Shown: piece by piece, positions 17,291 through 64,000 of the stretch
Layout of the letters: the number at the start of each line of letters is the position of its first letter
How positions within the stretch are numbered: position 1 is the first letter of the stretch
Origin: Candidatus Angelobacter sp.
Lineage (GTDB): Bacteria; Acidobacteriota; Terriglobia; Terriglobales; Acidobacteriaceae
Direction of reading: 5' to 3'
DNA: 64,000 nt
Assembly (NCBI GenBank): GCA_035995565.1
Contig: DASYKK010000017.1
Span: 2,286 to 66,285, forward strand
Notes under the pieces: generated by a model
What the model saw: only the letters and a program-made list of their open reading frames with translations
Told to the model about the DNA's origin: nothing
The model's database searches: none
Translations under genes and position numbers: made by a program

Positions 17291-17319
17291 TTGACACAAG
17301 AAGAACCTTCGGATAAAAA
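17291..17319 (+). promoter_or_regulatory. candidate sigma70-type promoter (TTGACA-N17-TAAAAA) upstream of the NusG paralogue
   Basis: ttgaca at 17291-17296, an exact 17-nt spacer, and taaaaa at 17314-17319, in an AT-rich 509-bp divergent intergenic region. This is a motif match only. Confidence 0.3.
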
Positions 17320-17535
17320 TGCCTACACTGCGGATGTAGATAATTAAATTTCTTTGATTAGGCTGGCTTCTCGTCCGGAGCTGTAAGGATCATACAGTCC
17401 GGATGGGGCTGCAATGGCGGTAGCCTGTAATGGTGTTGCCATACCTATTGGCATAACAATGTCCTGCTTTTATGAGTTAAAGAGCAGGAAACAATGGGTT
17501 AATCCTGGATAGACTTCAACTTTCGAGGGACTAGG

Positions 17536-18084
17536 ATGGAAGCACATTGCCCTACTGCGCAAGCATCCGAGTGGTTCGCCGTGCAGGTGAATGGTGGGCG
17601 TGAACACTTGAGTGCCACTCACCTCAGGGTACGCGGCTATGATATTTTTCTGCCATGCTACCCGGAACGCCGTCGCTGGACGGACCGCGTCAAGATCGTA
17701 GATCGTGCCCTTTTTCACGGATACATCTTCGCGCGCGCGATCCCTAATGCAGGGCAAATTGTGAGGGCTCCAGGGGTGATCCGGATCGTTGGGAATCGTA
17801 GCGGACCTGTATACATTCCTCTACGGGACATTGAAGCAATTCAACGTATTATTGACGCGGGGGCTCGGGTCGAGCCGTGCCCGCTACCACAGCCTGGTGA
17901 ACGTGTGTGCATCGAAGAAGGGCCTCTGCGTGGAATCGAGGGTACCGTGGTGGCCTCAAAAGGCGGGCACCGTCTGATTGTCAGCATATCGTTGCTGCAA
18001 CGTGCAGTAGCAGCCGAGATTGATTCGAACTGGCGCATTATACCCAGCTCCTTTTCCCGCACTTATCGGCAAGATTCTAACTAA
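17536..18084 (+). CDS. NusG-paralogue transcription antiterminator (LoaP/TaA/RfaH/UpxY-like): NGN + KOW
   Basis: NGN-like WFAVQVNGGREHLSATHLRVRGYDIFLPCY...LFHGYIFAR...GVIRIVG. KOW-like GERVCIEEGPLRGIEGTVVASKGGHRLIVSISLL. It is not in a secE-nusG-rplK context and is the first gene of the co-directional biosynthetic array. Confidence 0.8.
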   Translation: MEAHCPTAQASEWFAVQVNGGREHLSATHLRVRGYDIFLPCYPERRRWTDRVKIVDRALFHGYIFARAIPNAGQIVRAPGVIRIVGNRSGPVYIPLRDIEAIQRIIDAGARVEPCPLPQPGERVCIEEGPLRGIEGTVVASKGGHRLIVSISLLQRAVAAEIDSNWRIIPSSFSRTYRQDSN

Positions 18085-18308
18085 GCGAGGGCTGCGCCGA
18101 TTCGCTCACCCGGGGCATCTTGCAACCCTTTCCTCAAGACCAACGGCTCGCACTCACGCGGACCATCCTTCTGGATTGCTTGTGTCGGGCTGTCGTAGAA
18201 GCTTTAGATCAAATATAGTCTCCGCAGTGGGACTGAAAGCGGCCTAAATATGCCGCTAACGAGAACAAAGTTCCCGTTACAACGCGCATAACGGGTTAGA
18301 TAGCGTCA

Positions 18309-19115
18309 ATGCCCCACAGTGACCCAGATTTATCCCGACCGGTAGCTGTCCTAAAGGTGTCTCCGTGGCTCATTCGCTCGCCAACTTGCGGAGTCCCGAA
18401 GCTTCGGCTAGCTGCATTTCCTCACGCGGGTGGTGGAGCATCAGGCTTTCGTCGCTTATTTCGCTACCTCCCTGCCGAAGTTGAAGTGATTGGGATTCAG
18501 CTTCCAGGACGCGAAAATCGAGTTCGAGATCCCGCGAGTGGGAGTTTATTCGACTTGCTGCGCGATATTGTTGACAACCTTGCTCCGGCGCTCCAGGACG
18601 ACGTTCCGTTCGTCTTTTTTGGCCATAGTCTGGGCGCTCTTATTGCGTTCGAAGTAACACGGCTGTTCCGTGCGAACCGATTGTGCGGGCCCGCTGCTCT
18701 TATTGTCTCCGGACGCACGCCGCCTCACGTACCCCTGGTCCGCCCCGCCTTGCATGGACTCGCCGACAACGATCTGCTGCGCGAAGTTATCCGGCTCGAT
18801 GGTACACCTCGGGAACTGCAGAGCCACCCCGAAATGCTCAAGCTGATTCTGCCCGTCCTTCGGGCGGACTTAAGACTAGACGAAACCTACGCTTATTCGC
18901 AGGGGCCGCCGCTTGACTGCCCAGTTCTCGCCTGCGGCGGGCAAGACGATTCGGAAGCTCCATTGTCAACAATGCGGGAGTGGGAGATCCACACTTGTGC
19001 AAAATTTGTCCTCAAAACATTCGCAGGCGGGCACTTTTTTATGCATTCGAACTCGGCTCTGTTTAATACAGAACTGGCGTCGTTCTTGCGTAGCGTGACG
19101 CAGGTGATGGTGTGA
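18309..19115 (+). CDS. type II thioesterase (alpha/beta hydrolase, NRPS/PKS editing)
   Basis: LRLAAFPHAGGGASGFRRL, IGIQLPGRENR, nucleophile elbow FFGHSLGALIAFE, and C-terminal GGHFF. Confidence 0.85.
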   Translation: MPHSDPDLSRPVAVLKVSPWLIRSPTCGVPKLRLAAFPHAGGGASGFRRLFRYLPAEVEVIGIQLPGRENRVRDPASGSLFDLLRDIVDNLAPALQDDVPFVFFGHSLGALIAFEVTRLFRANRLCGPAALIVSGRTPPHVPLVRPALHGLADNDLLREVIRLDGTPRELQSHPEMLKLILPVLRADLRLDETYAYSQGPPLDCPVLACGGQDDSEAPLSTMREWEIHTCAKFVLKTFAGGHFFMHSNSALFNTELASFLRSVTQVMV

Positions 19116-19210
19116 CGTCGCGTACTTTGGAATTAGATATCCGGCCAGAACAGGACACGGTGCCCGGCCGATCCGGAACAGACAAGACTTCGTAGGCAGG
19201 TCTCCTAGAT

Positions 19211-21619
19211 ATGTTTTCAATTTTCTACGAGTGGCTGGAAGGGCTGGCGAGGGATTTGAGGTACGGCGCTCGAAACCTGCGTCGAAAGCCTGGGGTCCTG
19301 GTGGTTAGCGCTCTTTCGCTGGGGCTCGGAATCGGCGTGAATACAATTCTCTACATGGGTATCTCCAATATTTACGGACACAAACCAACGATGCACGATC
19401 CAAAGCGTGTCATGGGCGTCGAACTTGGAAACGGGAACCAGTTCTCGTATCCAGATTACCAGGATCTGTTGCGGAGCGGTATCTTCAGCGGCGCGTTGGG
19501 ATTCAGAACAACAACGCTCAATCTCGGTCCCAAAGGGGAAGTGACGCGTGTTGGCGCCACAGTCGTAACGGGGAACTACTTCGAGGTACTTGGCATTTCC
19601 GCGGCAGTCGGACGGATGTTCTCTGGCATTGATGCTCAACCAGAAACCGAACCCCGCGTTGTGGTGGTAACATCCGGGTTTTGGCGCGCCTACCTGAGGG
19701 GCGATTACGCCGCCATAGGTGAGCCAATCGTCCTGAACGGGGAGAGGTTTACCGTGGTCGGTATTCTGCCTGACAACTACCAGGCAGTCACGGGTTGGCG
19801 GGATCGCGGGGTATACGTTCCGCTGAGTAAGTTGATTTTGCCTAGCATCGACCAGCGTGACACGCCGAGTCTCACCGTGTTGGCCCGCTTGCAGCCGAAT
19901 ACATCGGCCGGGCAAGCAGCAAAGGCCGTTACCTCACTGAACGAGTGGCTCCAAAGCAAATATCCAGCCCGGCTGTCGAGCAGAGGACGACCGGCATCCA
20001 TATTCCCCGCGGAAGACCTTCAGTTCCGCGGCGCGCCAGCACAGTTGCTGTTGATGAAGATTGCCTGGGGCACAGCCATTTCCTTGCTTCTCATTTCGTG
20101 CGGCAATGTCGCTGGATTGCTGTTGGCCCGGGGATCAGATCGTCAATACGAGATGGCCATTCGCGGCGCCCTCGGTGCGGGACGTATGCGTGTTGCGCAG
20201 GCGATGCTCGCTGAAAGCTTTTTGCTTGTCATGACTGGAGCAGGAGTGGGTCTTCCATTGGCGTCATTGCTCAATCGAATTCCGATGCCCGCACCCATGA
20301 CGTATGTCCAGGACGCAATGGCGCTCGACAGCCGGGTACTGCCCTATTCTGGGCTACTCATTGGCTTTGCGACGCTCGTCTGCGGTGTGTTCCCAGCTAT
20401 CAGGACAATGCGCATAGACCTGATCGCCGTATTGAATCAGGGCGGCAGATTGTTCACTGCACCACGCGCGTGGTTGCGAGAGCTACTCGTTGCCGGGCAG
20501 GTCGCAATGACATTCATTCTTATAGTAGCGGCACTCTTGTGCGTAAGAAGTCAGATGCTGATTGCGCACGCGGACTTGGGGTTCGACATTGACCACGGAG
20601 TCGTCGCCCAGTTTGGACTTCAGCGCAACCAGTATGAAGGGCAGGATCGAGTTCGGTTAGCCGACCGTCTCACGAAGCGCATTGAGCAGATTCCCAGCGT
20701 AGTATCAGTGAGCGTAGCAGATATCGTGCCGCTGAGTGGCAACGCACTGATCAAGAGCTTCCACCCCGCCGGACGAACTGATATCGCGGGCACCCGCCCG
20801 GACACGTTCAGCGTAGGTCCGGGGTATTTCCGTACCCTGGGTATTCCGTTACTAAGAGGACGTGAGTTCAATGCTTTTGATCAACTTGGTGTCCCCTCTG
20901 TGGTGATTGTCAACGAGACCTTCGCCAGAACGTACTTCTCACGGACGAACATTATCGAAGAGATCGTTCAAACGGCGGGCGAGCGTGATTCCCGCGTGAT
21001 CGGGATCGTGCGGGATCATCGCATCGGCACAATTGGCGAGTCGCCGCGGTCGGTCCTTTACTATTCGTTTGCTCAGCGGCCGACTGAACTGAATCTTCAC
21101 GTGCGCAGTGCTGTGCCGCCGGATGCCCTTGTGGCCGGGGTACAACAGGCCATTCGGGAGATCGACGGAACAATCCCTGTTACGGTGCGGACCCTACACA
21201 ACGCGACAACGCTTGAACTAACCATGCGGCGCAGCGGCATGGTTCTGATGGGCGCATTGGGCGCGGTGGGACTGATATTAGCGGCCGTTGGCCTTTACGG
21301 TGTATTGGCTTATGTCGCTGCATCCCGTACCGGGGATGTCGCGATTCGCATGGCGCTCGGCGCCTCACGCGACCGCATTCGCTGGGAAATGCTGCGACGT
21401 GCTCTGATTGTAGTTTTGCCCAGCGTGGCACTTGGAGTGTGCTTGTCACTTTTAGTCATGCCTGCTTTCAGCACCTTCCTTGCCGGCGTGAACCCCTTGG
21501 ATCCCGTAGCTTTCGGTGGCGCGACGGCCATTTTTTTGCTAACTGGCGTTGCAGCTGGCTATGTTCCGGCGCAACGGAGTGCCCGCCAGGACCCCATGCA
21601 GGTATTCCGACGGCAGTAG
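19211..21619 (+). CDS. ADOP-family duplicated FtsX/MacB-like ABC permease (no adjacent ATPase)
   Basis: The N-terminus DLRYGARNLRRKPGVLVVSALSLGLGIGVNT is typical. There are two MacB-periplasmic-core plus FtsX halves, and the C-terminus ends YVPAQRSARQDPMQVFRRQ. The ~800-aa size fits the acidobacterial duplicated orphan permease family. Confidence 0.85.
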   Translation: MFSIFYEWLEGLARDLRYGARNLRRKPGVLVVSALSLGLGIGVNTILYMGISNIYGHKPTMHDPKRVMGVELGNGNQFSYPDYQDLLRSGIFSGALGFRTTTLNLGPKGEVTRVGATVVTGNYFEVLGISAAVGRMFSGIDAQPETEPRVVVVTSGFWRAYLRGDYAAIGEPIVLNGERFTVVGILPDNYQAVTGWRDRGVYVPLSKLILPSIDQRDTPSLTVLARLQPNTSAGQAAKAVTSLNEWLQSKYPARLSSRGRPASIFPAEDLQFRGAPAQLLLMKIAWGTAISLLLISCGNVAGLLLARGSDRQYEMAIRGALGAGRMRVAQAMLAESFLLVMTGAGVGLPLASLLNRIPMPAPMTYVQDAMALDSRVLPYSGLLIGFATLVCGVFPAIRTMRIDLIAVLNQGGRLFTAPRAWLRELLVAGQVAMTFILIVAALLCVRSQMLIAHADLGFDIDHGVVAQFGLQRNQYEGQDRVRLADRLTKRIEQIPSVVSVSVADIVPLSGNALIKSFHPAGRTDIAGTRPDTFSVGPGYFRTLGIPLLRGREFNAFDQLGVPSVVIVNETFARTYFSRTNIIEEIVQTAGERDSRVIGIVRDHRIGTIGESPRSVLYYSFAQRPTELNLHVRSAVPPDALVAGVQQAIREIDGTIPVTVRTLHNATTLELTMRRSGMVLMGALGAVGLILAAVGLYGVLAYVAASRTGDVAIRMALGASRDRIRWEMLRRALIVVLPSVALGVCLSLLVMPAFSTFLAGVNPLDPVAFGGATAIFLLTGVAAGYVPAQRSARQDPMQVFRRQ

Positions 21620-21656
21620 CCCGCAATCTTAATTGTTTTCTCGGAAAAGGACAGAA

Positions 21657-22190
21657 ATGCACAACATTCTTCGTTTCTTTGCCGGTCTCCTCTTCGTTGC
21701 CAGCTTAGCCGGGTGTGCAAATTACCCAAAGATTCCCGCAACAGGTGCCCCGGCACCGGATTTCCAGCTCATGAACCAAGCCGGCAAAACCGTAAGCTTA
21801 AAGGACTACGCTGGCAAATGGGTCGTACTCTACTTCTATCCCGGGGATTTCGGCAAACGGGGCACCGCAGCGGCGCGCAGTTATCGAGGAAATCTGCGCA
21901 AATTCGAGGAAGAGCAAACAGTCGTCATTGGGATCAGCCAAGATGATGTTTCAACCCATCAGGCTTTTGCCAAAGAGGAACAACTGCCGTTTACACTTCT
22001 TTCAGATGAGGGACAGAAGGTCGCGATGCAATACGGCTCTTTCCGGACGCGTCTGGTGCACACACTTGTGAGCTATCACACCTTTATTATTGATCCAAAA
22101 GGCAAGATCGCCCGTGTGTTTCTCGATCTCGACGCGATGGATCCGAGTGGCCAGATGCTCAGCGCTGTCAGTGCGCTGCAACAGCAGTGA
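21657..22190 (+). CDS. peroxiredoxin (BCP/AhpC-TSA)-fold lipoprotein lacking the peroxidatic cysteine
   Basis: Lipobox LAGC. APAPDFQLMNQAGKTVSLKDYAGKWVVLYFYPGDF...VIGISQDD...FTLLSDEGQKVAMQYG is a clear BCP-like scaffold. The expected DFTPGCT is DFGKRGT, with the Cys position occupied by Gly at 21861-21863. The only Cys in the protein is the lipobox Cys. Confidence 0.75.
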   Translation: MHNILRFFAGLLFVASLAGCANYPKIPATGAPAPDFQLMNQAGKTVSLKDYAGKWVVLYFYPGDFGKRGTAAARSYRGNLRKFEEEQTVVIGISQDDVSTHQAFAKEEQLPFTLLSDEGQKVAMQYGSFRTRLVHTLVSYHTFIIDPKGKIARVFLDLDAMDPSGQMLSAVSALQQQ

Positions 22191-22195
22191 CCCCA

Positions 22196-26089: not shown

Positions 26090-26090
26090 A

Positions 26091-27110
26091 ATGAATGGAA
26101 ATGCAAGAGGGAACGCCGTGTATGGTTTTGAGGCAAATGCCGATTCGGGGCATGATGTGCTGTGGAGGGGGCTCCCACACTCGAATTTTTACAGGCAGAT
26201 GAAGCTTACAGGGTCGACCACACTAGAATTGACGGGCGAAACGGAGCTAGAACGTCGTGCCTGCCGCTTGGACGTGGATCGCCATGCTGCGTTGGGCGCG
26301 TTTATAAACGCTAGTGGGCTGCATTTCACTACAATTATGCTTGGCATCTACCATGTAGTGCTGCAGTGGTATCTCGGAGATGTTGAGAGTATCATCGGCT
26401 GCTGCTTGCTGGAAAACGGCACGCCTCAAGGCGCCGAGGGCGGAATCCCGATAGTCCGATTGCGTCCCAGCTATGTGTACGCCGAGGATGATGATCGCAT
26501 CGAGGATGTGTTGCGAGATATCGAAGAGCGGCGCGCCGGACACCCTGTCGAAGTCGATATAGACACTTGTTCGTCGTGGACTTCCAAACGCGCTCCCACC
26601 TTTTACTATGTGGGTATTGAGGGCAGGGGCTTGAGCCATTCCGATACTGTAAACATCGCGGCCAGCCACTTGCCATTCCGTGTGATCGTCGGAGCTGCAA
26701 CGGAGGTAAATGGAACGGAACTCAGTATATCCATACCGTCCGCCATATCTCATGCGATCCCAATGCAAGACTTCCACCGGCGGCACGATACTGCACTTTC
26801 CTCATTGCTCGCGGGGAATTGTTCGCTGGTTGGTGAACTCAAGGCGCAGTTAGGCGACGCTGCGGAGGTCCCGTATCATCAGATCGAAGAAATGCAACAG
26901 AGAGTGATTACCCTTTGGGCTACGGTGCTCGGCATCCCAAAGGAGAAGGTAGACGCAACCTCGAATTACTACGAGTTGGGGGGAACATCCCTCAATGCGT
27001 TTCGGCTTGTCAATCGCGTGCGTCTGGAGTTGAAGCGTGACCTGAGCATCTGGGACATCGTAGAGAATCCGACCGTGGAACAGTTGTCACTGGCCCTGCT
27101 CAGGGACTAA
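26091..27110 (+). CDS. stand-alone carrier protein (PCP) with ~260-aa N-terminal region of uncertain function
   Basis: ATG lies 1 nt after the upstream TAA. The C-terminal segment is RVITLWATVLGIPKEKVDATSNYYELGGTSLNAFRLVNRV (PCP, GGxS). The N-terminal part (…GLHFTTIMLGIYHVVLQWYLGDVESIIGCC…) weakly resembles the C-terminal half of a condensation domain and has no HHxxxDG. Confidence 0.7.
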   Translation: MNGNARGNAVYGFEANADSGHDVLWRGLPHSNFYRQMKLTGSTTLELTGETELERRACRLDVDRHAALGAFINASGLHFTTIMLGIYHVVLQWYLGDVESIIGCCLLENGTPQGAEGGIPIVRLRPSYVYAEDDDRIEDVLRDIEERRAGHPVEVDIDTCSSWTSKRAPTFYYVGIEGRGLSHSDTVNIAASHLPFRVIVGAATEVNGTELSISIPSAISHAIPMQDFHRRHDTALSSLLAGNCSLVGELKAQLGDAAEVPYHQIEEMQQRVITLWATVLGIPKEKVDATSNYYELGGTSLNAFRLVNRVRLELKRDLSIWDIVENPTVEQLSLALLRD

Positions 27111-27116
27111 GCCGGG

Positions 27117-30106: not shown

Positions 30107-30110
30107 GACC

Positions 30111-31244: not shown

Positions 31245-31246
31245 GG

Positions 31247-32263: not shown

Positions 32264-32323
32264 CAGCATTCAGTGTTCCTCATACCGCTCGCTAGTCTGT
32301 CGTCAGTGCGAGATCATACGGCG

Positions 32324-58300: not shown

Positions 58301-60070
58301 GCCACCAGACTCCAACTCCTGCCGGTGTCAGCGAAGAACCCCAAATCCCTGAAAGGGATGCTGCTGGCGCTTGCTGATGAGTTTGGTAAGCGACCTGAGT
58401 CGTCGCTCGAAGATGTGGCATTCACCCTTCAGGTGGGGCGCAACGCCCATCCTTATCGTAGCTATATCGTGTGTAAGGAGTTGTCCGACGCGCAGGGGCA
58501 GTTCGCGAATCCGGAGCGCCTGGTAATCGAACGTCAAAACGAAGGGCTTACGCCCGCAGTTGTCCTTCTGTTTCCTGGACAAGGCTCACAGCAGAAGGAC
58601 GCGACTTACGAACTCTACAAGAATGAGCCAGGGTTCAGAGCCGCGCTTGACGAGTGCGCAGACATCGTGCAGCAGTACACCGGCGAAGACCTCCGCGACT
58701 GGTTGTATACGAAGCGTCCGGCTGCAGCGGTGCGCGGGCGAAACGTGCAACTTGAACAGACGGCTATTACACAGCCTCTGCTCTTTTCAATCGAATATGC
58801 TCTCGCGCGGTTCTGGGAGTCCCTCGGAGTCCGCCCTGTCGCAATGCTTGGTCACAGCATCGGTGAGTACGTTGCAGCCTGCATAGCAGGGGTGTTTTCG
58901 CTTCCTGAGGCGCTTGCGCTTATTGTGGCACGGGGCCGCCTTATCCAGAGTTTGCCGCCAGGTCACATGGTTGCAGTCAGTTGCGGGGAGGAGCAACTTC
59001 GTGGGATTCTCGATGGTTCCCCCTGCTGTCTGGCTGCCGTGAATGGCCCATCGCAATGTGTGGCATCGGGTCCTAGCGCTGATATCACCAAATTGCAAAC
59101 CTGCCTGCAGGCCGCAGGGGTATCAAGCAGCCTCCTGCGAACTTCTCACGCATTCCATTCTCAAATGGTCGCTCCGATTCTCCAGACATTTGAGAACTGT
59201 GTAGGTGAGGTTAAGAGGAGCCGCCCGATGGTACCGTTCATCTCCAATGTCAGCGGTACTTGGATAACTGATGCCGAAGCGATGAGTCCGGCGTATTGGG
59301 CCAGGCACCTGCGCCAAACTGTGCGCTTTGGGGATGGACTACAACAGGTTTTCGGCATAGGGAATCGTGTTTTGCTAGAAGTTGGACCTGGCCGTATCCT
59401 GACCACTTTGGTCAGGCAGACTGATCCCTCCGCGCGTGTCATTCGGTCCTTAAGTAGTGAACGCCCTTCGCAAGGTGAATGGTGGAGCTTCCTAGAGGCT
59501 GTTGGACAGCTATGGCAACACGGAGTAGAAATTGACTGGACTCGCCTTCACGAAGGACGGCAGCCACGACGCATGCCGTTGCCTTCCTATGTTTTCGACC
59601 GTAAGCGCTATTGGGTTGAGAGTCGCGCAAGCGTTGGCCCCGCCTCCGTCGGAGTCGAGGGAACAGCGGAGGCGGTGGCCCAACCTGCCGATGTGACCTT
59701 GTCTCTTGAGAGCCGCGACCGCCACGGTCTGGGGACAGAATTTGTGAGCCCGCGGGATGGAATTGAGGTCAGGCTGGTTGAGATCTGGAAGAGCTATCTT
59801 GGTATCCAGAACATTGGTGTTCGGGATAGCTTCTTCGAACTGGGTGGCGACTCACTTTTGGCTGCTCGAGTCCACTCGCAGATCCGAGAGCAGTTTGACG
59901 TTGAGCTTCCGCTGGCCCGGATGTTCGAATTAGCCACAATTCGACGTATTTCGCTGTACATATCGACCAGCCGTGATCCCGGGCTGATCGATACCCTCCC
60001 CGAACACGACCTGGACGACCTCCTCGCTGTGATGGAGTCGCGTCAGCCTGGAGACGTCCTGACATCTTAG
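52364..60070 (+). CDS. hybrid NRPS-PKS: TubC-type docking - Cy - A interrupted by MT - T - KS - AT - carrier
   Basis: Cy: FPLNDVQHAYWIGR (52589) and DFLMVD (52982-52999). A: FTSGSTGTPKGV (54410), FDLSVYDLFG, SLGGATEGSIWSI, A8 GRADSQVKLRGHRVELGEI (55154), then an inserted MT (VLEIGAGTGG, 55961), then LPDYMVP...LTNNGKVD (56566-56641). T GGDS (Ser 56804). KS NTTCSTS (Cys 57509). AT FPGQGSQ, GHSIGE (Ser 58856) and HAFH (59147). Last carrier GGDS (Ser 59852). GTG 52361 is also possible; GAGGAGGG RBS at 52352. Confidence 0.95.
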   Translation: MHELLSRLSDLNVRLEVRAGKLHVTAAPGVVTPELQQTISLQKKALIEMLESVDALPLQNELQQIVPDPAKRYEAFPLNDVQHAYWIGRSAHIELGAVSTHFYFEIQCGALDLGRLTSSFQKVLRIHDMLRAVVDVNGQQRVLEKIPPYAIAVSNQRGADQQQRETELLRIRSEMSHQVFPCDQWPMFDIRLAQISDEHSLLCVSWDFLMVDAWSMMLVFKQWFGYYQDPDYQVSTPSISFRDYVLAEAKLKEQPDYQRSRDYWWSRLDQLPPAPQLPMVSNIDLGRKHAFRRRRLQLPADQWDLIKTRGRQSGITPSSVLLAAFSTVLNLWCKAPHYCLNLTLFNRLPLHHEVMTLVGDFTNLMALEIDAKERCSFVELAARIQAQFLRDYDHRQVNVVEVLRELVKRRGWQQQAMLPVVFSSTLMLDGKRSDDGGVLERFGPMVYGITQTPQVWLDYQIFEVNGDLVINWDAVEEVFPPGVLDDMFESHQELLHLLVRDLGAWGRQDPAVLPKAQQQIRERVNHTAAEVVDRCLHDLFIATAMKYPDRIALACDAREMRYGELLAHSNLVAAQLIQCGVRPQELVAVVMGKGWEQVVAAMGVLIAGAAYLPIEPHWPTLRRNHILEQGEVHIVLTQPPLNRALEWPSNVHRIEVATQQGLDLLTTAPPIRQSPEDLAYVIFTSGSTGTPKGVMISHRSAVNTVVHVNRMFNVGAGDRVLAVSDLTFDLSVYDLFGILSAGGTIVVPDAALSRDPSHWEDLIRRHEVTIWNSAPPLMGMLVDGWGSDSGRHLSSLRLVLLSGDWIPVPLPDRIRGLSLGAQVISLGGATEGSIWSIFYSVEEVSSDWESIPYGNALPNQHMYVLNQGLLPCPDLVTGDIYIGGLGVALGYWKDPEKTARQFVIHPETGERLYYTGDLGSMCRDGNIKFLGRADSQVKLRGHRVELGEIATCLQSHPDIRDAAIRLLKLDNRTVMTAYAVVDRTGPGRLFEQTEVSTEALHKASSGIEAAAREFIDDADREGLQRFWCFWQDVERVSLRAMLETLQTLELVNGSNALSRLDLLIGSGRVLPQYRRLILRWFTALVDGRHLIEHDVAYTVSGSGISTAENVEHQLLALERSFGSDDRLKGFVEHVASCLRNHLSLLCGEINPLELLFPEGSWRIAESLYERNPAVRHHNRLIASMVSAFVETLDCDRNLRVLEIGAGTGGTATSVLPVLPPARTEYVYTDVSPYFFSTAKEKFKSYPFVRYAVHDLNRDPREQGHQPHSYDLIIATNILHNGRDISVVLRGIHDLLRPGGYLLVLEGTQTTLWMWATVAFLEVVPTYTDSRAESDQPALGVKEWLSALTGAGFEGLQSFPAPGVDPLSELLTAMPQHVIAAQGSAHATRFRPEELATFMRERLPDYMVPQRFVLLDKLPLTNNGKVDLAALPTESALPDAEAQQVVFPRSETEELILNIWRDVLGVAQLSVTANFFEVGGDSLLITEVMRRLNRSRRSPLTIAELFSYPTIRSLADFLSAVPDARAIQPTAILQELPQRAQRASDAIAVIGMSGRFPDAENVEQFWHNVAAGKCAVRHFSDADLLHAGVTSEELANPNYVKAGLVLRDIDLFDAAFFGFTPREAEIMDPQQRFLMECAVAALDTAGYPSEKYAGKIGVFVGKGTSLYLLQNLLSRPDIIQQVGLLPILNVNEKDHAATLISYKLNLTGPSLNVNTTCSTSLVAVHLACESLLNHECEMALAGGVSFVNLRESGYLYQEGQILSPDGICRAFSDDANGAMFGSGVGLVVLKPLAVALRDGDSIQAVIKGTAINNDGALKMSYTAPSLHGQAEVIAKAQARAGISPDMIQMIEAHGTGTRLGDPIEFGALRRVFGGPRPDGTHCSLGSVKTNIGHLDAAAGVAGLIKVVQALKHKQIPPTLHARVATRKVDFADSPFELTSKLKDWPAGAVARSAGVSSFGVGGTNAHIVVEESPRPEERSAATRLQLLPVSAKNPKSLKGMLLALADEFGKRPESSLEDVAFTLQVGRNAHPYRSYIVCKELSDAQGQFANPERLVIERQNEGLTPAVVLLFPGQGSQQKDATYELYKNEPGFRAALDECADIVQQYTGEDLRDWLYTKRPAAAVRGRNVQLEQTAITQPLLFSIEYALARFWESLGVRPVAMLGHSIGEYVAACIAGVFSLPEALALIVARGRLIQSLPPGHMVAVSCGEEQLRGILDGSPCCLAAVNGPSQCVASGPSADITKLQTCLQAAGVSSSLLRTSHAFHSQMVAPILQTFENCVGEVKRSRPMVPFISNVSGTWITDAEAMSPAYWARHLRQTVRFGDGLQQVFGIGNRVLLEVGPGRILTTLVRQTDPSARVIRSLSSERPSQGEWWSFLEAVGQLWQHGVEIDWTRLHEGRQPRRMPLPSYVFDRKRYWVESRASVGPASVGVEGTAEAVAQPADVTLSLESRDRHGLGTEFVSPRDGIEVRLVEIWKSYLGIQNIGVRDSFFELGGDSLLAARVHSQIREQFDVELPLARMFELATIRRISLYISTSRDPGLIDTLPEHDLDDLLAVMESRQPGDVLTS
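55260..56560 (+). other. methyltransferase domain inserted in the adenylation domain between motifs A8 and A9/A10
   Basis: A8 ends at ~55215 and A9/A10 resume at 56566. The ~430-aa insert contains the class-I SAM motif LRVLEIGAGTGGTA and IIATNILHNGRDISVVLRGIHDLLRPGGYLLVLE. Confidence 0.8.
58557..59430 (+). other. acyltransferase domain, malonyl-type motifs; the only AT seen in the window
   Basis: LLFPGQGSQ, MLGHSIGEYVAA and TSHAFHSQM (the HAFH motif is usually associated with malonyl-CoA). Confidence 0.8.
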
Positions 60071-60100: not shown

Positions 60101-60574
60101 ATGAGAGACGAAAGCCTGCGTACACAAATTTCATTGGCATCGATTACGGTCCTGCTAATTGGTTGTCTGATGTTCGCGTTCATGATTATCGAGAGCGCGC
60201 TGGCAGACAATAACTTCCGGGCATTGCGGCGCGATCCCGGTCTTGGAGCACTGAGAGTTCTCGTATATTTTATCCCCTTCTATGCGTTCGTCCCTCTCTA
60301 TGTGTATTTGGTGGGTGATCTCCGATTACGAGTTTTGCGCTGGGTGGTAGTTGCAATCGCAGGTCTGGGGTTCGTTTTCTGGATACTGCATCACCTGTCC
60401 CACTGGTACTTCGGGGGGAGACCTACCTTTAGCTCGCATGTGATTGACCTGTGTCTCCATACGCTCGGGCTGTGGCTACTCATCAGCTCAATCAAATGGG
60501 CGAGGCTCCCGTTTGCCGCACGTGAAATCGATCGTGCCCCCATTGCTAGCAAGGTAGCTTTGGGGCGAGAGTAG
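60101..60574 (+). CDS. small integral membrane protein (about 4 TM), unknown function
   Basis: Hydrophobic segments ITVLLIGCLMFAFMII, VLVYFIPFYAFVPLYVYLV, VVVAIAGLGFVFWIL and LCLHTLGLWLLISSI. It also has a His cluster, ILHHLSHWY. There is no recognisable family motif. Confidence 0.55.
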   Translation: MRDESLRTQISLASITVLLIGCLMFAFMIIESALADNNFRALRRDPGLGALRVLVYFIPFYAFVPLYVYLVGDLRLRVLRWVVVAIAGLGFVFWILHHLSHWYFGGRPTFSSHVIDLCLHTLGLWLLISSIKWARLPFAAREIDRAPIASKVALGRE

Positions 60575-60580
60575 GGAGTT

Positions 60581-61192
60581 ATGTCTCATATTTCCAGGTG
60601 GCTTTTAATAGGTTTTGGCGTCGCGCTGCTGGCAGCAGCAACGCCCTCAATTGCTTACGCCCATCCAATGGGTCAGGCCGCGGACGGCTTCAAGAGTGGA
60701 CTCTTGCATCCGGTATTCGGTCTTGATCATTTTCTTGCCATGTTGAGTGTGGGAATCGTAAGCGCACAGCTCGGTCGAGAAAGGATATGGACAGTCCCCG
60801 GAATGTTCGTTCTAGCTATGATTGCCGGCGCAGTCCCCGGTATCAAAGGCGAAATATGGCGCTTCTCTGAAGCTGGGATCGCTAGCTCCATGATCGCGCT
60901 CGGTGCCGCAATAGCCACCGTGACAGAAAAAGTCAGAAGTTGGCCTGTACTGCTCATGGTGGCTGGGTTCGGAAGCCTGCATGGGCACGCGCATGGCATC
61001 GAGCTACCGAAAGCCGCCGATCCCATCTACTACGCGTTTGGTTTCCTAACCAGCACAGTCGTCATTCATTTACTAGGGGTGGCCATTGGCCACCTATTCA
61101 CCAACAGATGGCCACTCATCGTCCTGCTTCGCCACGTAGGATCGGGGATTGCGGGCATGGGTTTGATGTTCTTGAAGTTGGCGGCCAGCTAG
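60581..61192 (+). CDS. HupE/UreJ-family metal (Ni/Co-type) permease
   Basis: The signal peptide ends ...SIAYA, followed by HPMG. GLLHPVFGLDHFLAMLSVGIVSAQ is the HupE/UreJ signature, and GSLHGHAHG is a further His cluster. Confidence 0.85.
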   Translation: MSHISRWLLIGFGVALLAAATPSIAYAHPMGQAADGFKSGLLHPVFGLDHFLAMLSVGIVSAQLGRERIWTVPGMFVLAMIAGAVPGIKGEIWRFSEAGIASSMIALGAAIATVTEKVRSWPVLLMVAGFGSLHGHAHGIELPKAADPIYYAFGFLTSTVVIHLLGVAIGHLFTNRWPLIVLLRHVGSGIAGMGLMFLKLAAS

Positions 61193-61193
61193 A

Positions 61194-62840
61194 ATGCCCC
61201 TCAGCTCAGTGCAATTTGATGACATTGTTGTTGGCGGTGGAACAACAGGTGCGGTGATTGCGTCACGTTTAAGTGAAGATCGGGAAAGGCGCGTGCTGCT
61301 GCTCGAGGCCGGACCTGATTACCCCGATACACTCCCAAACGAGTTGCTGGATGCTTCCTATGCCGTAATAAACGGGCACAATTGGAATATGCAGGCCGTT
61401 GTCCGGGAAGGCAGCCCAGCGATGACAGGTTCGCGGGCGCGGGTAACCAAAGTCTTTGATCACTTATCGAGCTTTTTAGAACCAGAAGCGAAATCGCAAC
61501 AATCCTGGTTGGGCCGCCAAGCCACCATGTTTCCGTATCCATTGGGTAGGGTCATGGGTGGAGGTTCGGCAATCAACGGGTGCATGGCTCTGCATGCCAG
61601 ACCGGAAGATTACGCGAGATGGGCAGTGGCTGGCGGCGACGCGTGGAGTTGGGAGCGCGTCCAGCCCTACATGAGCCGTATTACAACCGCGGATAGTAGC
61701 AAGTCGGCGGTGCCGATTGAGACGGCCGCACCCGAAGATATCACTCCATGCCAGAGAGCATTTCTGGAAGCCTGCCAAGCCCTGGGAAACCGCGAAGTCA
61801 ACCTAAGTCAAGGCACCATCGCGGGAGTGGGTACGATTCCAAAGAGTGTCCGCAAAGGCCAGAGAGTCTCAACCGCCACACTCTATCTCGCGGCGGCGCG
61901 AAACCGCTCGAATCTGACAATACGATCCAACTGTATGGTTGACAGACTCATTTTGGAACGCAGTGATGGCTCGCTAATGGCGACAGCTGTCGAAGCGCTC
62001 GTCGACGGCGTGCGATGCCGGTTTTCCGGCGGGCACATAACTATCTCCGCCGGAGCGATCAACTCACCTGCAATCCTGCTGCGTTCCGGAATTGGCGCGA
62101 CAGGCGAGATTGTGCGAGGCAATTTAACGCCAATGCTTGATCTTCCCGGTGTAGGCAAGAACCTGCAGGATCACCCTTCCGTGAGCATATGGGCCACACC
62201 CCGGCAGGGGTCTTGTCTTGCGGGCGAGCCAGTACATCAGTTGATGGCACAGCAAAGATCTACAGCCTCCGAAAAGCTTTGTGACGTCCAGGTCTACATG
62301 CTTAGCGCGATGCCAAGTCAGGATCTTCAGGGGCTTCAGCAGATGACTGGTTCAGATCTCGTGCTGGGTGTCTCCGCAGTGATTGCGACACCAAGCTCCA
62401 GGGGACATATAGAAGTGGCTAATGGCGATGCCACAACGAATCCGCGCATCTATCTCAATTGCCTAGAGGACCCCGAGGACTTGCGAAGGATGATGGAAGG
62501 CGTGCGGGCGGCGTGGCGAATGTTACGCGGAGGGCCTCTCGATATTCACATTGATCGAATTCTGTTGTGGACCCAGAACATTATTGATTCCGACGTGTTG
62601 CTTGAGAATCTGATTCGAGCCACGGTTCGGGTAGTCTGGCATCCAGTCGGAACTTTGCGTATGGGTAAGGAAGGTGACGCCATGGCAGTTGTGGATCCGT
62701 GCGGACGGCTCTACGGATGTCTAAACGTTACCGTGGCCGACGCGTCCATCCTGCCCACCGTTCCAAGCGTCCCACCGAATCTGACCTGTATGCTTATCGG
62801 CGAGCGTATCGCTGCCGGCATGCGCGGGCTGGAAGCCTAG
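61194..62840 (+). CDS. GMC-family FAD oxidoreductase (choline-dehydrogenase-like)
   Basis: FDDIVVGGGTTGAVIASRLSED (FAD GxGxxG), GRVMGGGSAINGCMALH, the C-terminal WHPVGTLRMG active-site His region, and DASILPTVPSVPPNLTCMLIGERIA. Confidence 0.9.
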   Translation: MPLSSVQFDDIVVGGGTTGAVIASRLSEDRERRVLLLEAGPDYPDTLPNELLDASYAVINGHNWNMQAVVREGSPAMTGSRARVTKVFDHLSSFLEPEAKSQQSWLGRQATMFPYPLGRVMGGGSAINGCMALHARPEDYARWAVAGGDAWSWERVQPYMSRITTADSSKSAVPIETAAPEDITPCQRAFLEACQALGNREVNLSQGTIAGVGTIPKSVRKGQRVSTATLYLAAARNRSNLTIRSNCMVDRLILERSDGSLMATAVEALVDGVRCRFSGGHITISAGAINSPAILLRSGIGATGEIVRGNLTPMLDLPGVGKNLQDHPSVSIWATPRQGSCLAGEPVHQLMAQQRSTASEKLCDVQVYMLSAMPSQDLQGLQQMTGSDLVLGVSAVIATPSSRGHIEVANGDATTNPRIYLNCLEDPEDLRRMMEGVRAAWRMLRGGPLDIHIDRILLWTQNIIDSDVLLENLIRATVRVVWHPVGTLRMGKEGDAMAVVDPCGRLYGCLNVTVADASILPTVPSVPPNLTCMLIGERIAAGMRGLEA

Positions 62841-62940
62841 GCGAGGAACGCGGTACCCTTCGCCCTAAATGCAGCTGGTTTTCCGAAATCGTGCGGAACT
62901 TTCAATGACACATAATAAGAAGGAGCGCTTGCGCAGCCTC

Positions 62941-64000
62941 ATGGCGTCTACTGCCGTTGTGACCCGAGTTCCGTTGGTCGCGCGGCGGCTGCGGACTTCG
63001 GAGCTAGAGCCTTTGTCATTTGCACAACAGGGTCTCTGGTTTGTGTCGCAACTGGAGGGACCAAACCCCGCCTACAACAATTCGATCATCATTCGAGTGT
63101 CCGGGGCTCTGGACGTGGAAGCACTTAATCGAGCTGTCTCCCATGTCGTCCAACGCCACGACTCGTTGCGGACGAGGTTCGTGGAACGCGGGGGTGTTCC
63201 AAGCCAATTCTGTGAAGACATCGCGGAAGTGCGAATGGATGTGCAATGGGTGACCTCAGCGGAGCTAGATGCTGTATTGCTTAGCGAAGCCCGGCGTCCC
63301 TTCGAAATGGGAAAAGACCGACTTTTCCGCGTGCGGCTGTACAAGGAATCGAGCGAGCGTTTTGCCTTCGTGGTCAGCATGCACCACAGCATCTCGGACG
63401 CTTGGTCCGTCGGTTTGTTTATACGTGAGATGGTGTCGCTTTATGACGCTTATAGCAATGGAAGTGATCTGTCACTCAATGCGCTTCCAGTAACGTACCT
63501 CGATTATGTGCATTGGCAACGCGACTGGCTCGACAGTGGGGTGCTTGAGCGCCAACTCGGGTATTGGCGAAGTCAGTTGAAGGATCTTTCTCCGCTGGCA
63601 CTGATACGCCCTGACTTGCCGCTCGTCCGGCCGCATAGCACCCGTGGCGGCGCCGTGGAGTTCGCAGTGCCGCTCCAGCTTTTGAAGCATCTGAAATCCC
63701 TGAGCAATGAGCACTGCTGCTCACTTTTTGTGACATTACTTGCAGGACTCGCCGTTGTTTTGAATCACTATTCATCGCGGCGCGATATCGCAATCGGAAC
63801 GGGGGTATCCAATCGGCGAAGCACAGAGCTTGAAGGTCTGATCGGCTACTTTGTCAACACTTTGGTACTCCGTCTTGAGTTGTCGCCGGATATGTCATTC
63901 ACATCCGTGCTAAGGGCTGCACGTGATGTGTTAACTCAAGCGTTGGAGAACCAGGATGCCCCTTACCATCGAGTCGTTCAAGAGTTGCGGCCGCAAAGAA
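62941..64000 (+). CDS. NRPS, N-terminal condensation domain; continues past the window edge (absent from the supplied ORF track)
   Basis: My own translation gives MASTAVVTRVPLVARRLRTSELEPLSFAQQGLWFVSQLEGPNPAYNNS...MHHSISDAWS...YLDYVHWQRDWL...GLIGYFVNTLVLRL..., with no stop to nt 64000. AAGGAG lies at 62919. An alternative in-frame start is ATG 62905. Confidence 0.85.
   Translation, partial: MASTAVVTRVPLVARRLRTSELEPLSFAQQGLWFVSQLEGPNPAYNNSIIIRVSGALDVEALNRAVSHVVQRHDSLRTRFVERGGVPSQFCEDIAEVRMDVQWVTSAELDAVLLSEARRPFEMGKDRLFRVRLYKESSERFAFVVSMHHSISDAWSVGLFIREMVSLYDAYSNGSDLSLNALPVTYLDYVHWQRDWLDSGVLERQLGYWRSQLKDLSPLALIRPDLPLVRPHSTRGGAVEFAVPLQLLKHLKSLSNEHCCSLFVTLLAGLAVVLNHYSSRRDIAIGTGVSNRRSTELEGLIGYFVNTLVLRLELSPDMSFTSVLRAARDVLTQALENQDAPYHRVVQELRPQR

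What the first reader, a model, noticed from the sequence alone, without database searches (positions are those of the whole stretch)
17291..64000. A >46-kb co-directional hybrid NRPS/PKS gene cluster with an architecture I cannot match to a characterised pathway
Every credible gene from 17,536 to the window edge is on the plus strand. Gaps are short and several stop/start codons overlap (22187, 29198, 52361). The array combines five features: (a) a NusG-paralogue leader gene; (b) an NRPS sub-cluster with trans-acting A, T, thiolase-fold, ACAD-like and TauD-like proteins; (c) a PKS with an MT-pseudoGNAT-MT-ACP loader and AT-less modules; (d) two Cys-type heterocyclisation modules; (e) metal-transport and redox genes. 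It continues into another NRPS at 62,941. The host appears to be an acidobacterium, inferred from the ADOP permease and GxxExxY cassettes. As far as I know, few natural products from that phylum are linked to genes. The TE sits in the middle gene (48,171-52,364) rather than the last, so gene order is probably not colinear with assembly, or two assembly lines are interleaved.
Basis: partly seen in the sequence, partly recalled or inferred. Interest (0 to 1): 0.85.

Follow-up and report, generated by a model that had tools for sequence, protein, structure and literature searches.

The report
Orphan acidobacterial hybrid PKS–NRPS gene cluster
This is a real, intact, one-directional 46-kb-plus gene cluster from an uncultured soil acidobacterium (Candidatus Angelobacter) that should build a hybrid polyketide-peptide with a tert-butyl-type head and sulfur-containing thiazoline rings; it matches no pathway I could compare it with, but such orphan clusters are common in this genus.

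Summary
From 17,536 to the window edge, every ORF with a family match lies on the + strand. Gaps are short, none of the ORFs has an internal stop, and all eight carrier-protein serines are present.

Four of the five listed features hold as written:
- a NusG paralogue leads the cluster;
- an AprA-type MT1-ΨGNAT-MT2-ACP loader sits on AT-less PKS modules;
- two Cys-activating heterocyclisation modules are present;
- HupE/UreJ, GMC and peroxiredoxin genes are present.

The fifth, the trans A/T/KAS III-like/ACAD-like/TauD-like set, holds with refinements.

The host is settled. The window's proteins are identical to those of an NCBI MAG named Candidatus Angelobacter sp. (Acidobacteriota), on a 66,986-bp contig, so the cluster is cut by the contig end.

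- the last PKS module has its own malonyl-specific AT;
- no discrete AT lies in the window;
- PKS module 1 has a DH but no KR;
- nrpsA carries only a remnant of an A domain;
- the "T" protein is a probable half-C domain fused to a PCP.

New findings: a perfect RfaH-type ops element (GGCGGTAGCCTG) lies in the leader, and the A/KAS III/ACAD/TauD cassette recurs in other metagenomes.

No characterised match was found, but MIBiG could not be searched. Verdict: a new member of a known kind, of moderate interest.

The parts
17291..17320 (+). Promoter-like site: TTGACA, 18-nt spacer, AAAAAT.
   Evidence: 10 of 12 consensus matches. This is a consensus match only. The count of such sites in the region is not above the shuffled expectation.
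17416..17427 (+). ops-like element GGCGGTAGCCTG in the leader, 120 nt upstream of the NusG-paralogue ATG.
   Evidence: the only GGCGGTAGNNTG match in 64 kb on either strand. GGCGGTAG also lies upstream of 17 of 56 homologous acidobacterial genes, against about 1.2 expected.
17536..18084 (+). Specialised NusG paralogue (UpxY/LoaP/RfaH-like) and first gene of the cluster.
   Evidence: Its homologues are almost all in Acidobacteriota.
18309..19115 (+). Type II (editing) thioesterase with a GHSLG motif.
19211..21619 (+). ADOP-family duplicated MacB-type permease; likely exporter.
   Evidence: TIGR03434 scores 634 bits against a cut-off of 622..
21633..22190 (+). AhpC/TSA-type peroxiredoxin or thiol-disulfide oxidoreductase with a lipoprotein-like N-terminus (the assemblies' gene calls start it at 21657).
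22187..26089 (+). nrpsA, in order: TubC_N dock (22223-22351), C1 with HHIASDA (22424-23749), remnant of an A domain covering only its C-terminal part (23750-24376), PCP (24395-24577), C2 with HHIATDG (24716-26083).
26118..27110 (+). xT: a probable C-terminal half of a C domain (26241-26819) fused to a PCP (26898-27089).
   Evidence: hhalign against the window's C domains gives probability 74% and E = 2.7e-5. The AlphaFold single-sequence model was unusable, pLDDT 35.
27117..29201 (+). A1: a stand-alone A domain (specificity code DVGDAVGIEK, unassigned) with a C-terminal extension (28728-29162) paralogous to the NTase-like protein at 32738.
29198..30106 (+). KAS III-like thiolase-fold protein. 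C119, H260 and D265 are invariant in its family.
   Evidence: There is no direct Pfam or PDB hit. It has 160 remote homologues. The family profile hits FabH, PqsC, CorB and ChlB3. 48 of 61 family members match PF08545.
30111..31244 (+). ACAD-fold flavoprotein; its closest matches are ACAD, DszC and two-component monooxygenase types.
   Evidence: all weak. It is conserved in the cassette at 39-65% identity.
31292..32263 (+). TauD-like Fe(II)/2-oxoglutarate oxygenase. It has HCE...H residues, so it looks like a hydroxylase rather than a halogenase.
   Evidence: Its homologue in L071 has an unmarked PF02668 hit and is 56% identical.
32738..33703 (+). Nucleotidyltransferase-like protein (weak NTP_transf_2 match), part of the conserved cassette.
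33872..35659 (+). ABC exporter with a fused transmembrane and ATPase domain.
35708..48127 (+). pksB (4139 aa).
- Loader: AprA_N 35708-35905, WH 36101-36388, MT1 36425-37228, ΨGNAT about 37232-37687, MT2 37694-38743, ACP 38873-39076.
- Module 1: KS 39203-40345, DH 41042-41917, ACP 42008-42205. It has no AT and no KR.
- Module 2: KS 42362-43498, DH 44222-45076, KR 45767-46300, C-MT 47117-47482, ACP 47837-48010. It has no AT.
48171..52364 (+). nrpsC, in order: TubC_N dock 48186-48332, Cy with an NxxxxD variant 48402-49673, A for Cys (DLYNLSLIWK) 49800-51230, PCP 51324-51509, TE with GWSSG 51588-52340.
52361..60070 (+). hybD, in order: dock 52367-52516; Cy with DFLMVDAWS 52589-53866; A for Cys (DLYSLSLIW) 53990-55300 and 56522-56635, interrupted by a PKS-type C-MT 55772-56509; PCP 56723-56920; KS 56993-58123; AT with HAFH (malonyl) 58568-59431; ACP 59771-59962.
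60101..60574 (+). Hydrophobic protein of 157 aa with no family match.
60581..61192 (+). HupE/UreJ-family membrane protein. The family is annotated as Ni/Co transport.
   Evidence: (PF04955, E = 3e-46).
61194..62840 (+). GMC-family FAD oxidoreductase.
62941..64000 (+). nrpsE: the start of a further NRPS (C domain with HHSISDAW). It is cut by the window, and about 3 kb later by the contig end.

Best explanation
The region is a single operon-like biosynthetic gene cluster of an uncultured soil acidobacterium, Candidatus Angelobacter sp. It encodes a hybrid polyketide/non-ribosomal-peptide assembly line. It is truncated at its 3' end by the contig break.

Regulation (inferred). Transcription starts in the AT-rich leader, where a promoter-like site lies at 17291. 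RNA polymerase then meets an ops-type element at 17416-17427. The NusG paralogue encoded by the first gene keeps RNA polymerase processive across more than 46 kb.

Chemistry (inferred from domain homology).
1. The AprA-type loader methylates malonyl-ACP (MT1), then decarboxylates and methylates it (MT2), giving a pivaloyl (tert-butyl) starter or, failing full methylation, an isobutyryl one. The malonyl group is supplied in trans.
2. Two AT-less modules add two malonate units. The second unit is α-methylated, reduced and dehydrated.
3. The chain passes through TubC_N-type docking domains to Cys-specific heterocyclisation modules that form thiazoline rings. One module carries a PKS-type C-methyltransferase and is followed by a malonyl-specific KS-AT-ACP.
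4. The TE of nrpsC releases a product.

A second set of proteins probably supplies and incorporates one modified amino-acid-derived unit. This set comprises nrpsA, the half-C-PCP protein, the stand-alone A domain, and the KAS III-like, ACAD-like and TauD-like enzymes. Export would use the ADOP permease and the ABC transporter.

The order of the modules, and whether there are one or two products, cannot be decided from the window.
For: Shown:
- Co-directional intact genes.
- Domain assignments.
- The loader matches AprA MT1 (6b39), the 7uci/7ucl chain (which I take from memory to be SxtA MT) and AprA ΨGNAT-MT2 (6d6y) over its full length. At the one motif where the alignments show the two chains differing, it has AprA's 'YH' rather than the 'FQ' of the 7uci chain.
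- No GNAT Pfam hit falls in the ΨGNAT stretch.
- KS Cys-His-His residues, DH HxxxGxxxxP and DxxxQ motifs, KR catalytic residues and the AT HAFH motif are all present.
- Both Cys specificity codes are present.
- Both Cy domains belong to the Cy clade, and the 'TxQ..LDHQ' region of nrpsC is conserved with EpoB and HMWP2.
- The MT embedded in hybD resembles PKS C-MTs: CurJ scores 165 bits, and no NRPS N-MT appears in the list.
- The TE has a GWSSG motif.
- The ops match is unique in the window and recurs upstream of homologous genes.
- The same cluster sequence was found in three independent metagenome assemblies.
- The A/KAS III/ACAD/TauD cassette keeps its gene order in other metagenomes at 47-65% identity.
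- The host is identified.

From memory of Skiba et al. 2017 and 2018, which could not be retrieved here: AprA MT1 dimethylates malonyl-ACP, MT2 decarboxylates and methylates it to pivaloyl-ACP, and FabD primes the ACP.
Against: - No discrete AT is present in the 64 kb.
- Module 1 has a DH but no KR. The related loader gene in L008 is followed by a KR.
- nrpsA has only an A-domain remnant, and xT appears to have only half a C domain.
- The TE lies in the middle gene.
- Three N-terminal docks face only two visible C-terminal tails.
- The cluster end is missing.
- No PPTase or MbtH-like gene was seen.
- No chemistry or expression data exist.
- The NusG paralogue keeps only one (H20) of the five RfaH residues that I recall as ops contacts.
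- The two closest relatives in MAG genomes that lead NRPS genes (L010, L011) lack an exact ops element.
Confidence: 0.85

Rival explanations
1. Two assembly lines share one operon. Line 1 is colinear: pksB followed by nrpsC (Cy-A-PCP-TE). It would release a small 2-alkenyl-thiazoline-4-carboxylic acid with a tert-butyl tail. Line 2 comprises hybD, nrpsE and its continuation, nrpsA, xT and the tailoring cassette, and makes a second product. Alternatively, the KAS III-like enzyme joins the two chains, as CorB and MxnB do.
For: pksB is followed after 43 nt by a complete Cy-A-PCP-TE protein with an N-terminal dock. A type I TE normally ends a line. The KAS III-like family profile also hits CorB. 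There are more dock-bearing acceptor proteins than donor tails.
Against: hybD and nrpsA both start with a dock followed by a Cy or C domain, so each needs an upstream acyl donor. The only donors visible with C-terminal tails are pksB and hybD. nrpsC and hybD are translationally coupled. No second loading module is visible in the window.
Confidence: 0.3
2. The order is non-colinear: pksB, then hybD, then nrpsC-TE. This gives thiazoline-malonate-thiazoline, a yersiniabactin- or micacocidin-like metal chelator. HupE/UreJ would serve in metal handling.
For: The sequence Cy-A-PCP, KS-AT-ACP, Cy-A-PCP-TE mirrors the HMWP2 to HMWP1 logic (from my own knowledge). A C-MT sits in the Cys module, as in HMWP1. 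A HupE/UreJ gene lies in the cluster. Both pksB and hybD carry acidic C-terminal tails.
Against: The window has no aryl cap, thiazoline reductase, TonB-dependent receptor or periplasmic binding protein. The published survey found no siderophore markers next to Ca. Angelobacter BGCs (PMC9723581). This reading does not explain nrpsA, xT or nrpsE.
Confidence: 0.25
3. The cluster is decaying and non-functional.
For: It has a truncated A domain in nrpsA, an apparent half-C domain in xT, a DH without a KR, AT-less modules with no AT gene in the window, and a Cy motif variant.
Against: There are about 46 kb of ORFs, one of them 12.4 kb long, without a single stop or frameshift. All catalytic and carrier motifs checked are intact. 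The 'degenerate' xT protein and the A1 extension are conserved as such in other metagenomes. A-less modules loaded in trans, and trans-AT systems whose AT is encoded elsewhere, are well known.
Confidence: 0.07

Closest known systems
AprA loading module of the apratoxin A pathway (Moorea bouillonii), and AprA-like loaders such as CanA of canalesolide
   Same: The domain order is the same: AprA_N, winged helix, MT1, ΨGNAT, MT2, ACP. Full-length sequence matches to the solved AprA MT1 and ΨGNAT-MT2 structures were found. The loader has no AT. The MT1-ΨGNAT-MT2-ACP architecture is taken as the signature of a pivaloyl starter (PMC13564409).
   Different: The MT1 core aligns over its full length but is clearly diverged from AprA. 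The host is an acidobacterium, not a cyanobacterium. The downstream modules are AT-less (trans-AT style) instead of cis-AT. There is no HCS β-branching cassette. The rest of the cluster is unrelated.
EpoA/EpoB junction of epothilone biosynthesis, and TubC-type docking
   Same: nrpsC and hybD begin with a TubC_N docking domain followed by a Cy domain and a Cys-specific A domain. EpoB dock-Cy is the best solved match (5t7z, E = 6e-59). As in epothilone biosynthesis, a PKS hands its chain to a Cy module.
   Different: No Ox domain is present, so thiazolines rather than thiazoles are expected. nrpsC has NxxxxD in place of DxxxxD. One A domain is interrupted by a C-MT rather than an Ox domain.
Yersiniabactin (HMWP2/HMWP1) and pyochelin-type thiazoline assembly lines
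   Same: They share Cys heterocyclisation modules, a PKS module between two Cy modules (if the order is hybD then nrpsC), a C-MT in a Cys module, and a terminal Cy-PCP-TE. HMWP2 Cy and PchE are among the structural matches.
   Different: There is no salicylate or aryl starter, no thiazoline reductase, and no TonB receptor. The starter is polyketide. No NCBIfam equivalog model is reached.
RfaH/ops, UpxY and LoaP specialised NusG paralogues
   Same: The protein has an NGN domain. It is encoded as the first gene of a long operon, like UpxY and LoaP. The leader carries the RfaH ops consensus GGCGGTAGnnTG. Relatives with the same element lead exopolysaccharide loci, as RfaH and UpxY do.
   Different: All three NCBIfam models score below cut-off. 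Identity to RfaH is 22%, and 4 of 5 recalled ops-contact residues differ. RfaH is normally unlinked to its targets. For operon-encoded paralogues the mode of recruitment is reported as unknown (PMC7593976).
Other orphan NRPS/PKS clusters of Candidatus Angelobacter (Crits-Christoph et al. 2022, PMC9723581)
   Same: They share the genus, large NRPS-PKS hybrids, an association with MacB-type pumps, the absence of siderophore markers, and the absence of a link to MIBiG.
   Different: This particular cluster is not described there as far as I could see. At 90% identity its ADOP, HupE and GMC proteins are singletons, and nrpsC clusters only with copies of itself.

Membership tests
AprA-type pivaloyl-forming PKS loading module | N-terminal AprA_N, winged helix and metal-dependent MT1 (Pfam Methyltransf_36). 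| tested here: met
   PF23526 scores 73 bits, PF23589 70 bits and PF23525 331 bits; 6b39 at E = 6e-135.
AprA-type pivaloyl-forming PKS loading module | A truncated, inactive ΨGNAT between MT1 and MT2. | tested here: inconclusive
   No GNAT Pfam hit falls in aa 509-660. The stretch aligns with the AprA ΨGNAT-MT2 chain from its residue 2. Catalytic residues were not examined.
AprA-type pivaloyl-forming PKS loading module | A second PKS-type C-MT (MT2) directly before the ACP. | tested here: met
   (6d6y at E = 2e-85, with CurJ and DisA C-MTs next). The ACP serine motif LGLDSI is present.
AprA-type pivaloyl-forming PKS loading module | Three methyl transfers giving pivaloyl-ACP. | not testable with these tools
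   The only hint is that the 'YH' residues match AprA rather than the 'FQ' of the 7uci chain, which I take to be the monomethylating SxtA MT.
trans-AT PKS | KS-containing modules without an integrated AT, with KS-AT-linker remnants. | tested here: met
   two KS modules have RhiE-like linkers and no PF00698. The domain order DH-KR-MT-ACP is typical of trans-AT systems.
trans-AT PKS | A free-standing AT encoded in the cluster. | tested here: not met
   No discrete AT lies in the 64 kb. The only AT is the cis AT of hybD. The cluster is incomplete, so an AT may lie downstream.
Cys heterocyclisation NRPS module (Cy-A-PCP) | A Cy-clade condensation domain with the DxxxxD motif. | tested here: met
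   hybD has DFLMVD. nrpsC has NNFFSD, with the first Asp replaced by Asn, but it is of the Cy clade and its LDHQ region is conserved.
Cys heterocyclisation NRPS module (Cy-A-PCP) | An A-domain specificity code for Cys. | tested here: met
   DLYNLSLIWK and DLYSLSLIW-.
Yersiniabactin/pyochelin-type siderophore cluster | An aryl-acid starter, a thiazoline reductase and a TonB-dependent uptake system. | tested here: not met
   None of these appears among the window's genes.
RfaH / UpxY / LoaP specialised NusG paralogues | A score above the curated family cut-off. | tested here: not met
   UpxY scores 90.9 against a cut-off of 100, LoaP 51.2 against 125, and RfaH 51.1 against 144.5.
RfaH / UpxY / LoaP specialised NusG paralogues | An ops element (GGCGGTAGnnTG) in the leader of the regulated operon. 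| tested here: met
   with conservation in relatives. Function was not tested.
KAS III (FabH)-like thiolase-fold enzymes | Sequence-profile similarity to FabH over both halves, and a conserved nucleophilic Cys. | tested here: met
   C119 is invariant. The His and Asn positions differ from FabH: N230 aligns to the FabH His region and H260 to the FabH Asn region.

The most novel reading that the evidence does not exclude
The cluster makes a new structural class: a tert-butyl-headed polyketide carrying methyl-thiazoline ring(s), joined to a residue built by a conserved six-gene cassette. As far as I could identify, that cassette is uncharacterised. It comprises an A domain fused to an NTase-like domain, a half-C-PCP protein, a KAS III-like enzyme with a rearranged triad, an ACAD-fold flavoprotein, a TauD-like oxygenase and a stand-alone NTase-like protein. 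The whole cluster would be under a cis-encoded NusG paralogue recruited by a canonical ops element. If so, this would be the first AprA-type tert-butyl chemistry assigned to Acidobacteriota. It would also give a practical switch (ops plus paralogue) for waking silent acidobacterial clusters.
Probability: 0.25. Interest if true: 0.65.

Novelty: new member of a known kind. Interest (0 to 1): 0.42.

Why it matters
Acidobacteriota are among the most abundant soil bacteria, and very few of their natural products are tied to genes. Ca. Angelobacter is uncultured and rich in clusters.

This cluster offers three concrete handles:
- An AprA-type loader outside cyanobacteria. It predicts an easily recognised tert-butyl NMR/MS signature for linking the genes to a molecule.
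- A conserved, unassigned cassette that may make a new building block.
- A cis-encoded antiterminator with a recognisable ops site, which could be co-expressed to drive 46-kb-plus transcription in a heterologous host.

As a discovery in itself it is one more orphan cluster in a genus known to hold hundreds.

Tried and rejected
- A genome-contig scan with the GMC protein found no close relative.
- A concatenated query (KAS III-like, TauD-like and xT N-terminus) returned nothing from the search for homologous proteins. This is probably an artefact of the concatenation, because orf302 alone later gave 160 homologues.
- Direct PDB searches of orf302 and of the TauD-like protein were empty.
- The AlphaFold single-sequence model of xT was useless, pLDDT 35, so no fold search was run.
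- Rfam found nothing in the window.
- The Skiba 2017 and 2018 AprA papers could not be retrieved.
- Attempts to extend the cluster beyond 64 kb failed. Every assembly breaks inside nrpsE, about 340-400 nt past the window in the Logan and JGI contigs and within 3 kb in the NCBI contig.
- The contexts of the closest loader homologues (L008, L009) turned out to be different clusters that share only the loader and first KS-DH. They could not be used to infer the missing part.
- The hairpin at 18273-18295 was rejected as an intrinsic terminator because it has no T-run.
- An apratoxin-like pathway was rejected because there is no HCS cassette and no cis-AT modules after the loader.
- A siderophore-cluster membership was rejected because its defining genes are absent.

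Full report
**Observation.** The ORF list and the Pfam and NCBIfam scans confirm an unbroken series of + strand genes from 17,536 to the window edge. The ten longest antisense ORFs in the region have no Pfam hit. None of the 19 ORFs has an internal stop, including the 12.4-kb pksB. Intergenic gaps are mostly 1-100 nt. True overlaps lie at 29198 and at 52361-52364. The overlap at 22187 depends on the start chosen; the gene calls in the assemblies use 22196. The finding's start coordinate, 17291, coincides with a promoter-like TTGACA-18-AAAAAT site.

**Source.** Exact look-ups place the same sequence in three independent metagenome assemblies: Logan SRR11678605, JGI 3300041409 and JGI 3300035673. 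It is also in an NCBI MAG whose proteins (HEV7673016 to HEV7673041) are named 'Candidatus Angelobacter sp.', on a contig of 66,986 bp. That genus belongs to Acidobacteriota, class Terriglobia. The ADOP permease call is also correct: TIGR03434 scores 634 bits against a cut-off of 622. The cluster runs off the contig within 3 kb of the window end, so its 3' part is unknown.

**Anatomy, genes 17,536-35,659.**
- 17536: NusG paralogue.
- 18309: type II thioesterase.
- 19211: ADOP/MacB-type permease.
- 21633: lipoprotein-like peroxiredoxin.
- 22187, nrpsA: TubC_N dock, C, A-domain remnant, PCP, C. Only the part of the A domain that aligns with the C-terminal half of my GrsA fragment is present.
- 26118, xT: about 250 aa followed by a PCP. 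The N-terminal part aligns with the C-terminal subdomain of the window's C domains (hhalign probability 74%, E = 2.7e-5).
- 27117, A1: a complete A domain with the unassigned code DVGDAVGIEK, plus a 170-aa extension.
- 29198: a 302-aa protein with no direct hits.
- 30111: an ACAD-fold protein with weak hits to ACAD, DszC and related monooxygenases.
- 31292: a TauD-like protein with an HxE...H pattern.
- 32738: a weak NTP_transf_2-like protein.
- 33872: an ABC exporter.

**Anatomy, genes 35,708-64,000.**
- 35708, pksB: AprA_N, WH, MT1, ΨGNAT, MT2, ACP / KS, DH, ACP / KS, DH, KR, C-MT, ACP.
- 48171, nrpsC: dock, Cy, A, PCP, TE.
- 52361, hybD: dock, Cy, A (interrupted by an MT), PCP, KS, AT, ACP.
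- 60101: a hydrophobic 157-aa protein.
- 60581: HupE/UreJ.
- 61194: GMC oxidoreductase.
- 62941: a new C domain.

**The loader.** The N-terminal 1130 aa match the 7uci/7ucl chain (which I take from memory to be SxtA MT; 483 bits), AprA MT1-ΨGNAT (6b39, 455 bits) and AprA ΨGNAT-MT2 (6d6y, 291 bits). Together these matches cover almost the whole loader. No GNAT model hits the intervening stretch, as expected for a pseudo-GNAT. In the MT1 core the window reads 'HFDTYH'. AprA reads 'HFDAYH' and the 7uci chain reads 'HFDAFQ'. This is a hint towards the dimethylating type and no more than that. From my knowledge of Skiba et al. (2017, 2018), which I could not retrieve: MT1 dimethylates malonyl-ACP, MT2 decarboxylates and methylates it to pivaloyl-ACP, and FabD primes the ACP. 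A recent paper uses the same architecture to predict a tert-butyl starter (PMC13564409). The nearest loader homologues are 51-58% identical and come from Thermoanaerobaculia, Pyrinomonadaceae and other Acidobacteriota MAGs. Tahibacter and Verrucomicrobia follow at about 40%. Two of these contexts were fetched. They share only the loader and the first KS-DH, then diverge.

**PKS details.**
- All three KS domains have the Cys and both His residues.
- Both DH domains have HxxxGxxxxP and DxxxQ motifs.
- The KR has an 'LHD' motif in the B-type position, plus its catalytic Ser, Tyr and Asn.
- The hybD AT has GHSIG and HAFH motifs, predicting malonyl specificity.
- Module 1 has a DH but no KR, whereas the homologous module in L008 is followed by a KR. 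Its β-processing is therefore uncertain.
- No free-standing AT lies anywhere in the window. The AT-less modules and the loader must be served by the hybD AT, by FabD, or by a gene beyond the contig.

**NRPS details.** The two Cys codes are canonical. The hybD Cy domain has DxxxxD. The nrpsC Cy domain has NxxxxD but is 28% identical to the hybD Cy over 479 aa. Its best solved match is the EpoB dock-Cy structure (E = 6e-59), and it shares the 'T.Q..LDHQ' region. I take it to be a working Cy domain with an unusual motif. The MT that interrupts the hybD A domain resembles PKS C-methyltransferases, with CurJ at 165 bits. C-methylation is therefore the likelier reaction, either of the thiazoline α-carbon or of the following β-keto unit. 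No Ox domain is present, so thiazolines are expected. The TE has GWSSG. All carrier serines are present.

**The tailoring cassette.** An exhaustive search gave orf302 160 remote homologues of about 300 aa. C119, H260 and D265 are invariant in the family. Its profile hits FabH (2ebd, E = 2e-17), PqsC, CorB and ChlB3, and 48 of 61 members match PF08545. The triad positions differ from FabH.

The neighbours of orf302 homologues are informative. L071 and L072 (47% identical) carry A, KAS III-like, a 377-aa ACAD-like protein and TauD in the same order. L074 and L075 (55-58%) carry A, KAS III-like and ACAD-like. L073 carries the xT-like protein, ACAD-like, a 686-aa A domain, KAS III-like and an NTase-like protein, with an IS66 insertion. 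The C-terminal extension of A1 is paralogous to the stand-alone NTase-like protein. This is a conserved functional unit. I could not identify a characterised counterpart for it.

**Regulation.** The first gene scores best with the UpxY model (91 bits, cut-off 100), then LoaP and RfaH. In the leader, 120 nt before its ATG, lies GGCGGTAGCCTG. This is the only match to the RfaH ops consensus GGCGGTAGnnTG in the window. A match anywhere in the 64 kb appeared in 15 of 100 shuffles, but the site lies in a leader of about 250 nt on the correct strand.

Homologues of the protein are numerous in soil metagenomes. Of 59 loci in the genome collection, 58 are Acidobacteriota and one is Chthoniobacterales. 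In 17 of the 56 loci analysed, GGCGGTAG lies within -500 to +60 of the tblastn match start. In most it lies 47-116 nt upstream of it, inside a longer conserved motif, TCAARGGGCGGTAGCTTG. About 1.2 such loci would be expected by chance. Two such loci were examined and both lead exopolysaccharide operons with Wza, Wzc and glycosyltransferase genes. Closer relatives lead NRPS genes (L010, L011 and the P0175 contig), but L010 and L011 lack an exact ops.

The protein is only 22% identical to RfaH and keeps one of the five ops-contact residues that I recall. The literature states that the recruitment mode of operon-encoded NusG paralogues is unknown and that RfaH is about 95% proteobacterial (PMC7593976). 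I infer processive antitermination with ops-dependent pausing or loading. This was not tested.

**Comparison with known pathways.** No NCBIfam equivalog model for a named synthetase is approached. At 90% identity the cluster's proteins are singletons or cluster only with copies of themselves. Literature searches found no characterised acidobacterial pathway with these features. The published survey of the genus reports many large NRPS-PKS clusters with MacB pumps, no siderophore markers and no MIBiG links (PMC9723581). MIBiG itself could not be searched, so 'orphan' is well supported but not proven.

**Verdict.** It is a new member of a known kind, a trans-AT-style PKS/NRPS hybrid, in a genus already known for such clusters. 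The AprA-type loader in Acidobacteriota, the conserved unassigned cassette and the ops-bearing leader raise it above routine. The truncated 3' end, the unresolved module order and the lack of any chemistry limit what can be claimed.

Noticed in passing
window 17416-17427 (+); L016, L022, L024, L026-L028, L030, L032, L036, L037, L039, L041, L044, L046, L050, L058, L065 upstream of the NusG-paralogue genes: A perfect RfaH-type ops element (GGCGGTAGnnTG) lies in the cluster leader. The same core, inside a longer motif TCAARGGGCGGTAGCTTG, lies upstream of the gene in 17 of 56 homologous loci, all but one acidobacterial. The two of those loci that I examined lead exopolysaccharide operons.
   Followed up: partly
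window 26118-33703; L071-L075: A conserved gene cassette is also found in unrelated metagenome contigs. It comprises an A domain with an NTase-like tail, a KAS III-like protein, an ACAD-fold protein and a TauD-like protein, plus a half-C-PCP protein and an NTase-like protein. I could not identify a characterised counterpart.
   Followed up: partly
window 28728-29162 and 32738-33703: The C-terminal extension of the stand-alone A domain is a paralogue of the separate NTP_transf_2-like protein encoded 3.5 kb downstream.
   Followed up: partly
window 10082-14565 (+) and 5267-6709 (-): Upstream of the cluster lie a TolC/EmrA/EmrB-type tripartite efflux set and an EntS-like MFS gene on the opposite strand. 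A PolA-like gene on the - strand separates them from the cluster, so they were not counted as part of it.
   Followed up: no
window 6914-9901 (+): Two adjacent ORFs of 451 and 538 aa, directly before the TolC gene, have no Pfam or NCBIfam match.
   Followed up: no
window 40001-44000: GC content (about 0.60) and GC skew (about +0.2) rise locally over the KS1 C-terminal part through KS2 of pksB, compared with the rest of the cluster.
   Followed up: no
window 18273-18295: A 23-nt perfect hairpin (CCCGTTAC...ATAACGGG) lies between the NusG paralogue and the TEII gene. It has no T-run, so it is not a canonical terminator.
   Followed up: partly
window 2305-2781 (+): A PD-(D/E)XK nuclease-family ORF (PF13366) is wedged between the thiolase and FadE genes.
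   Followed up: no
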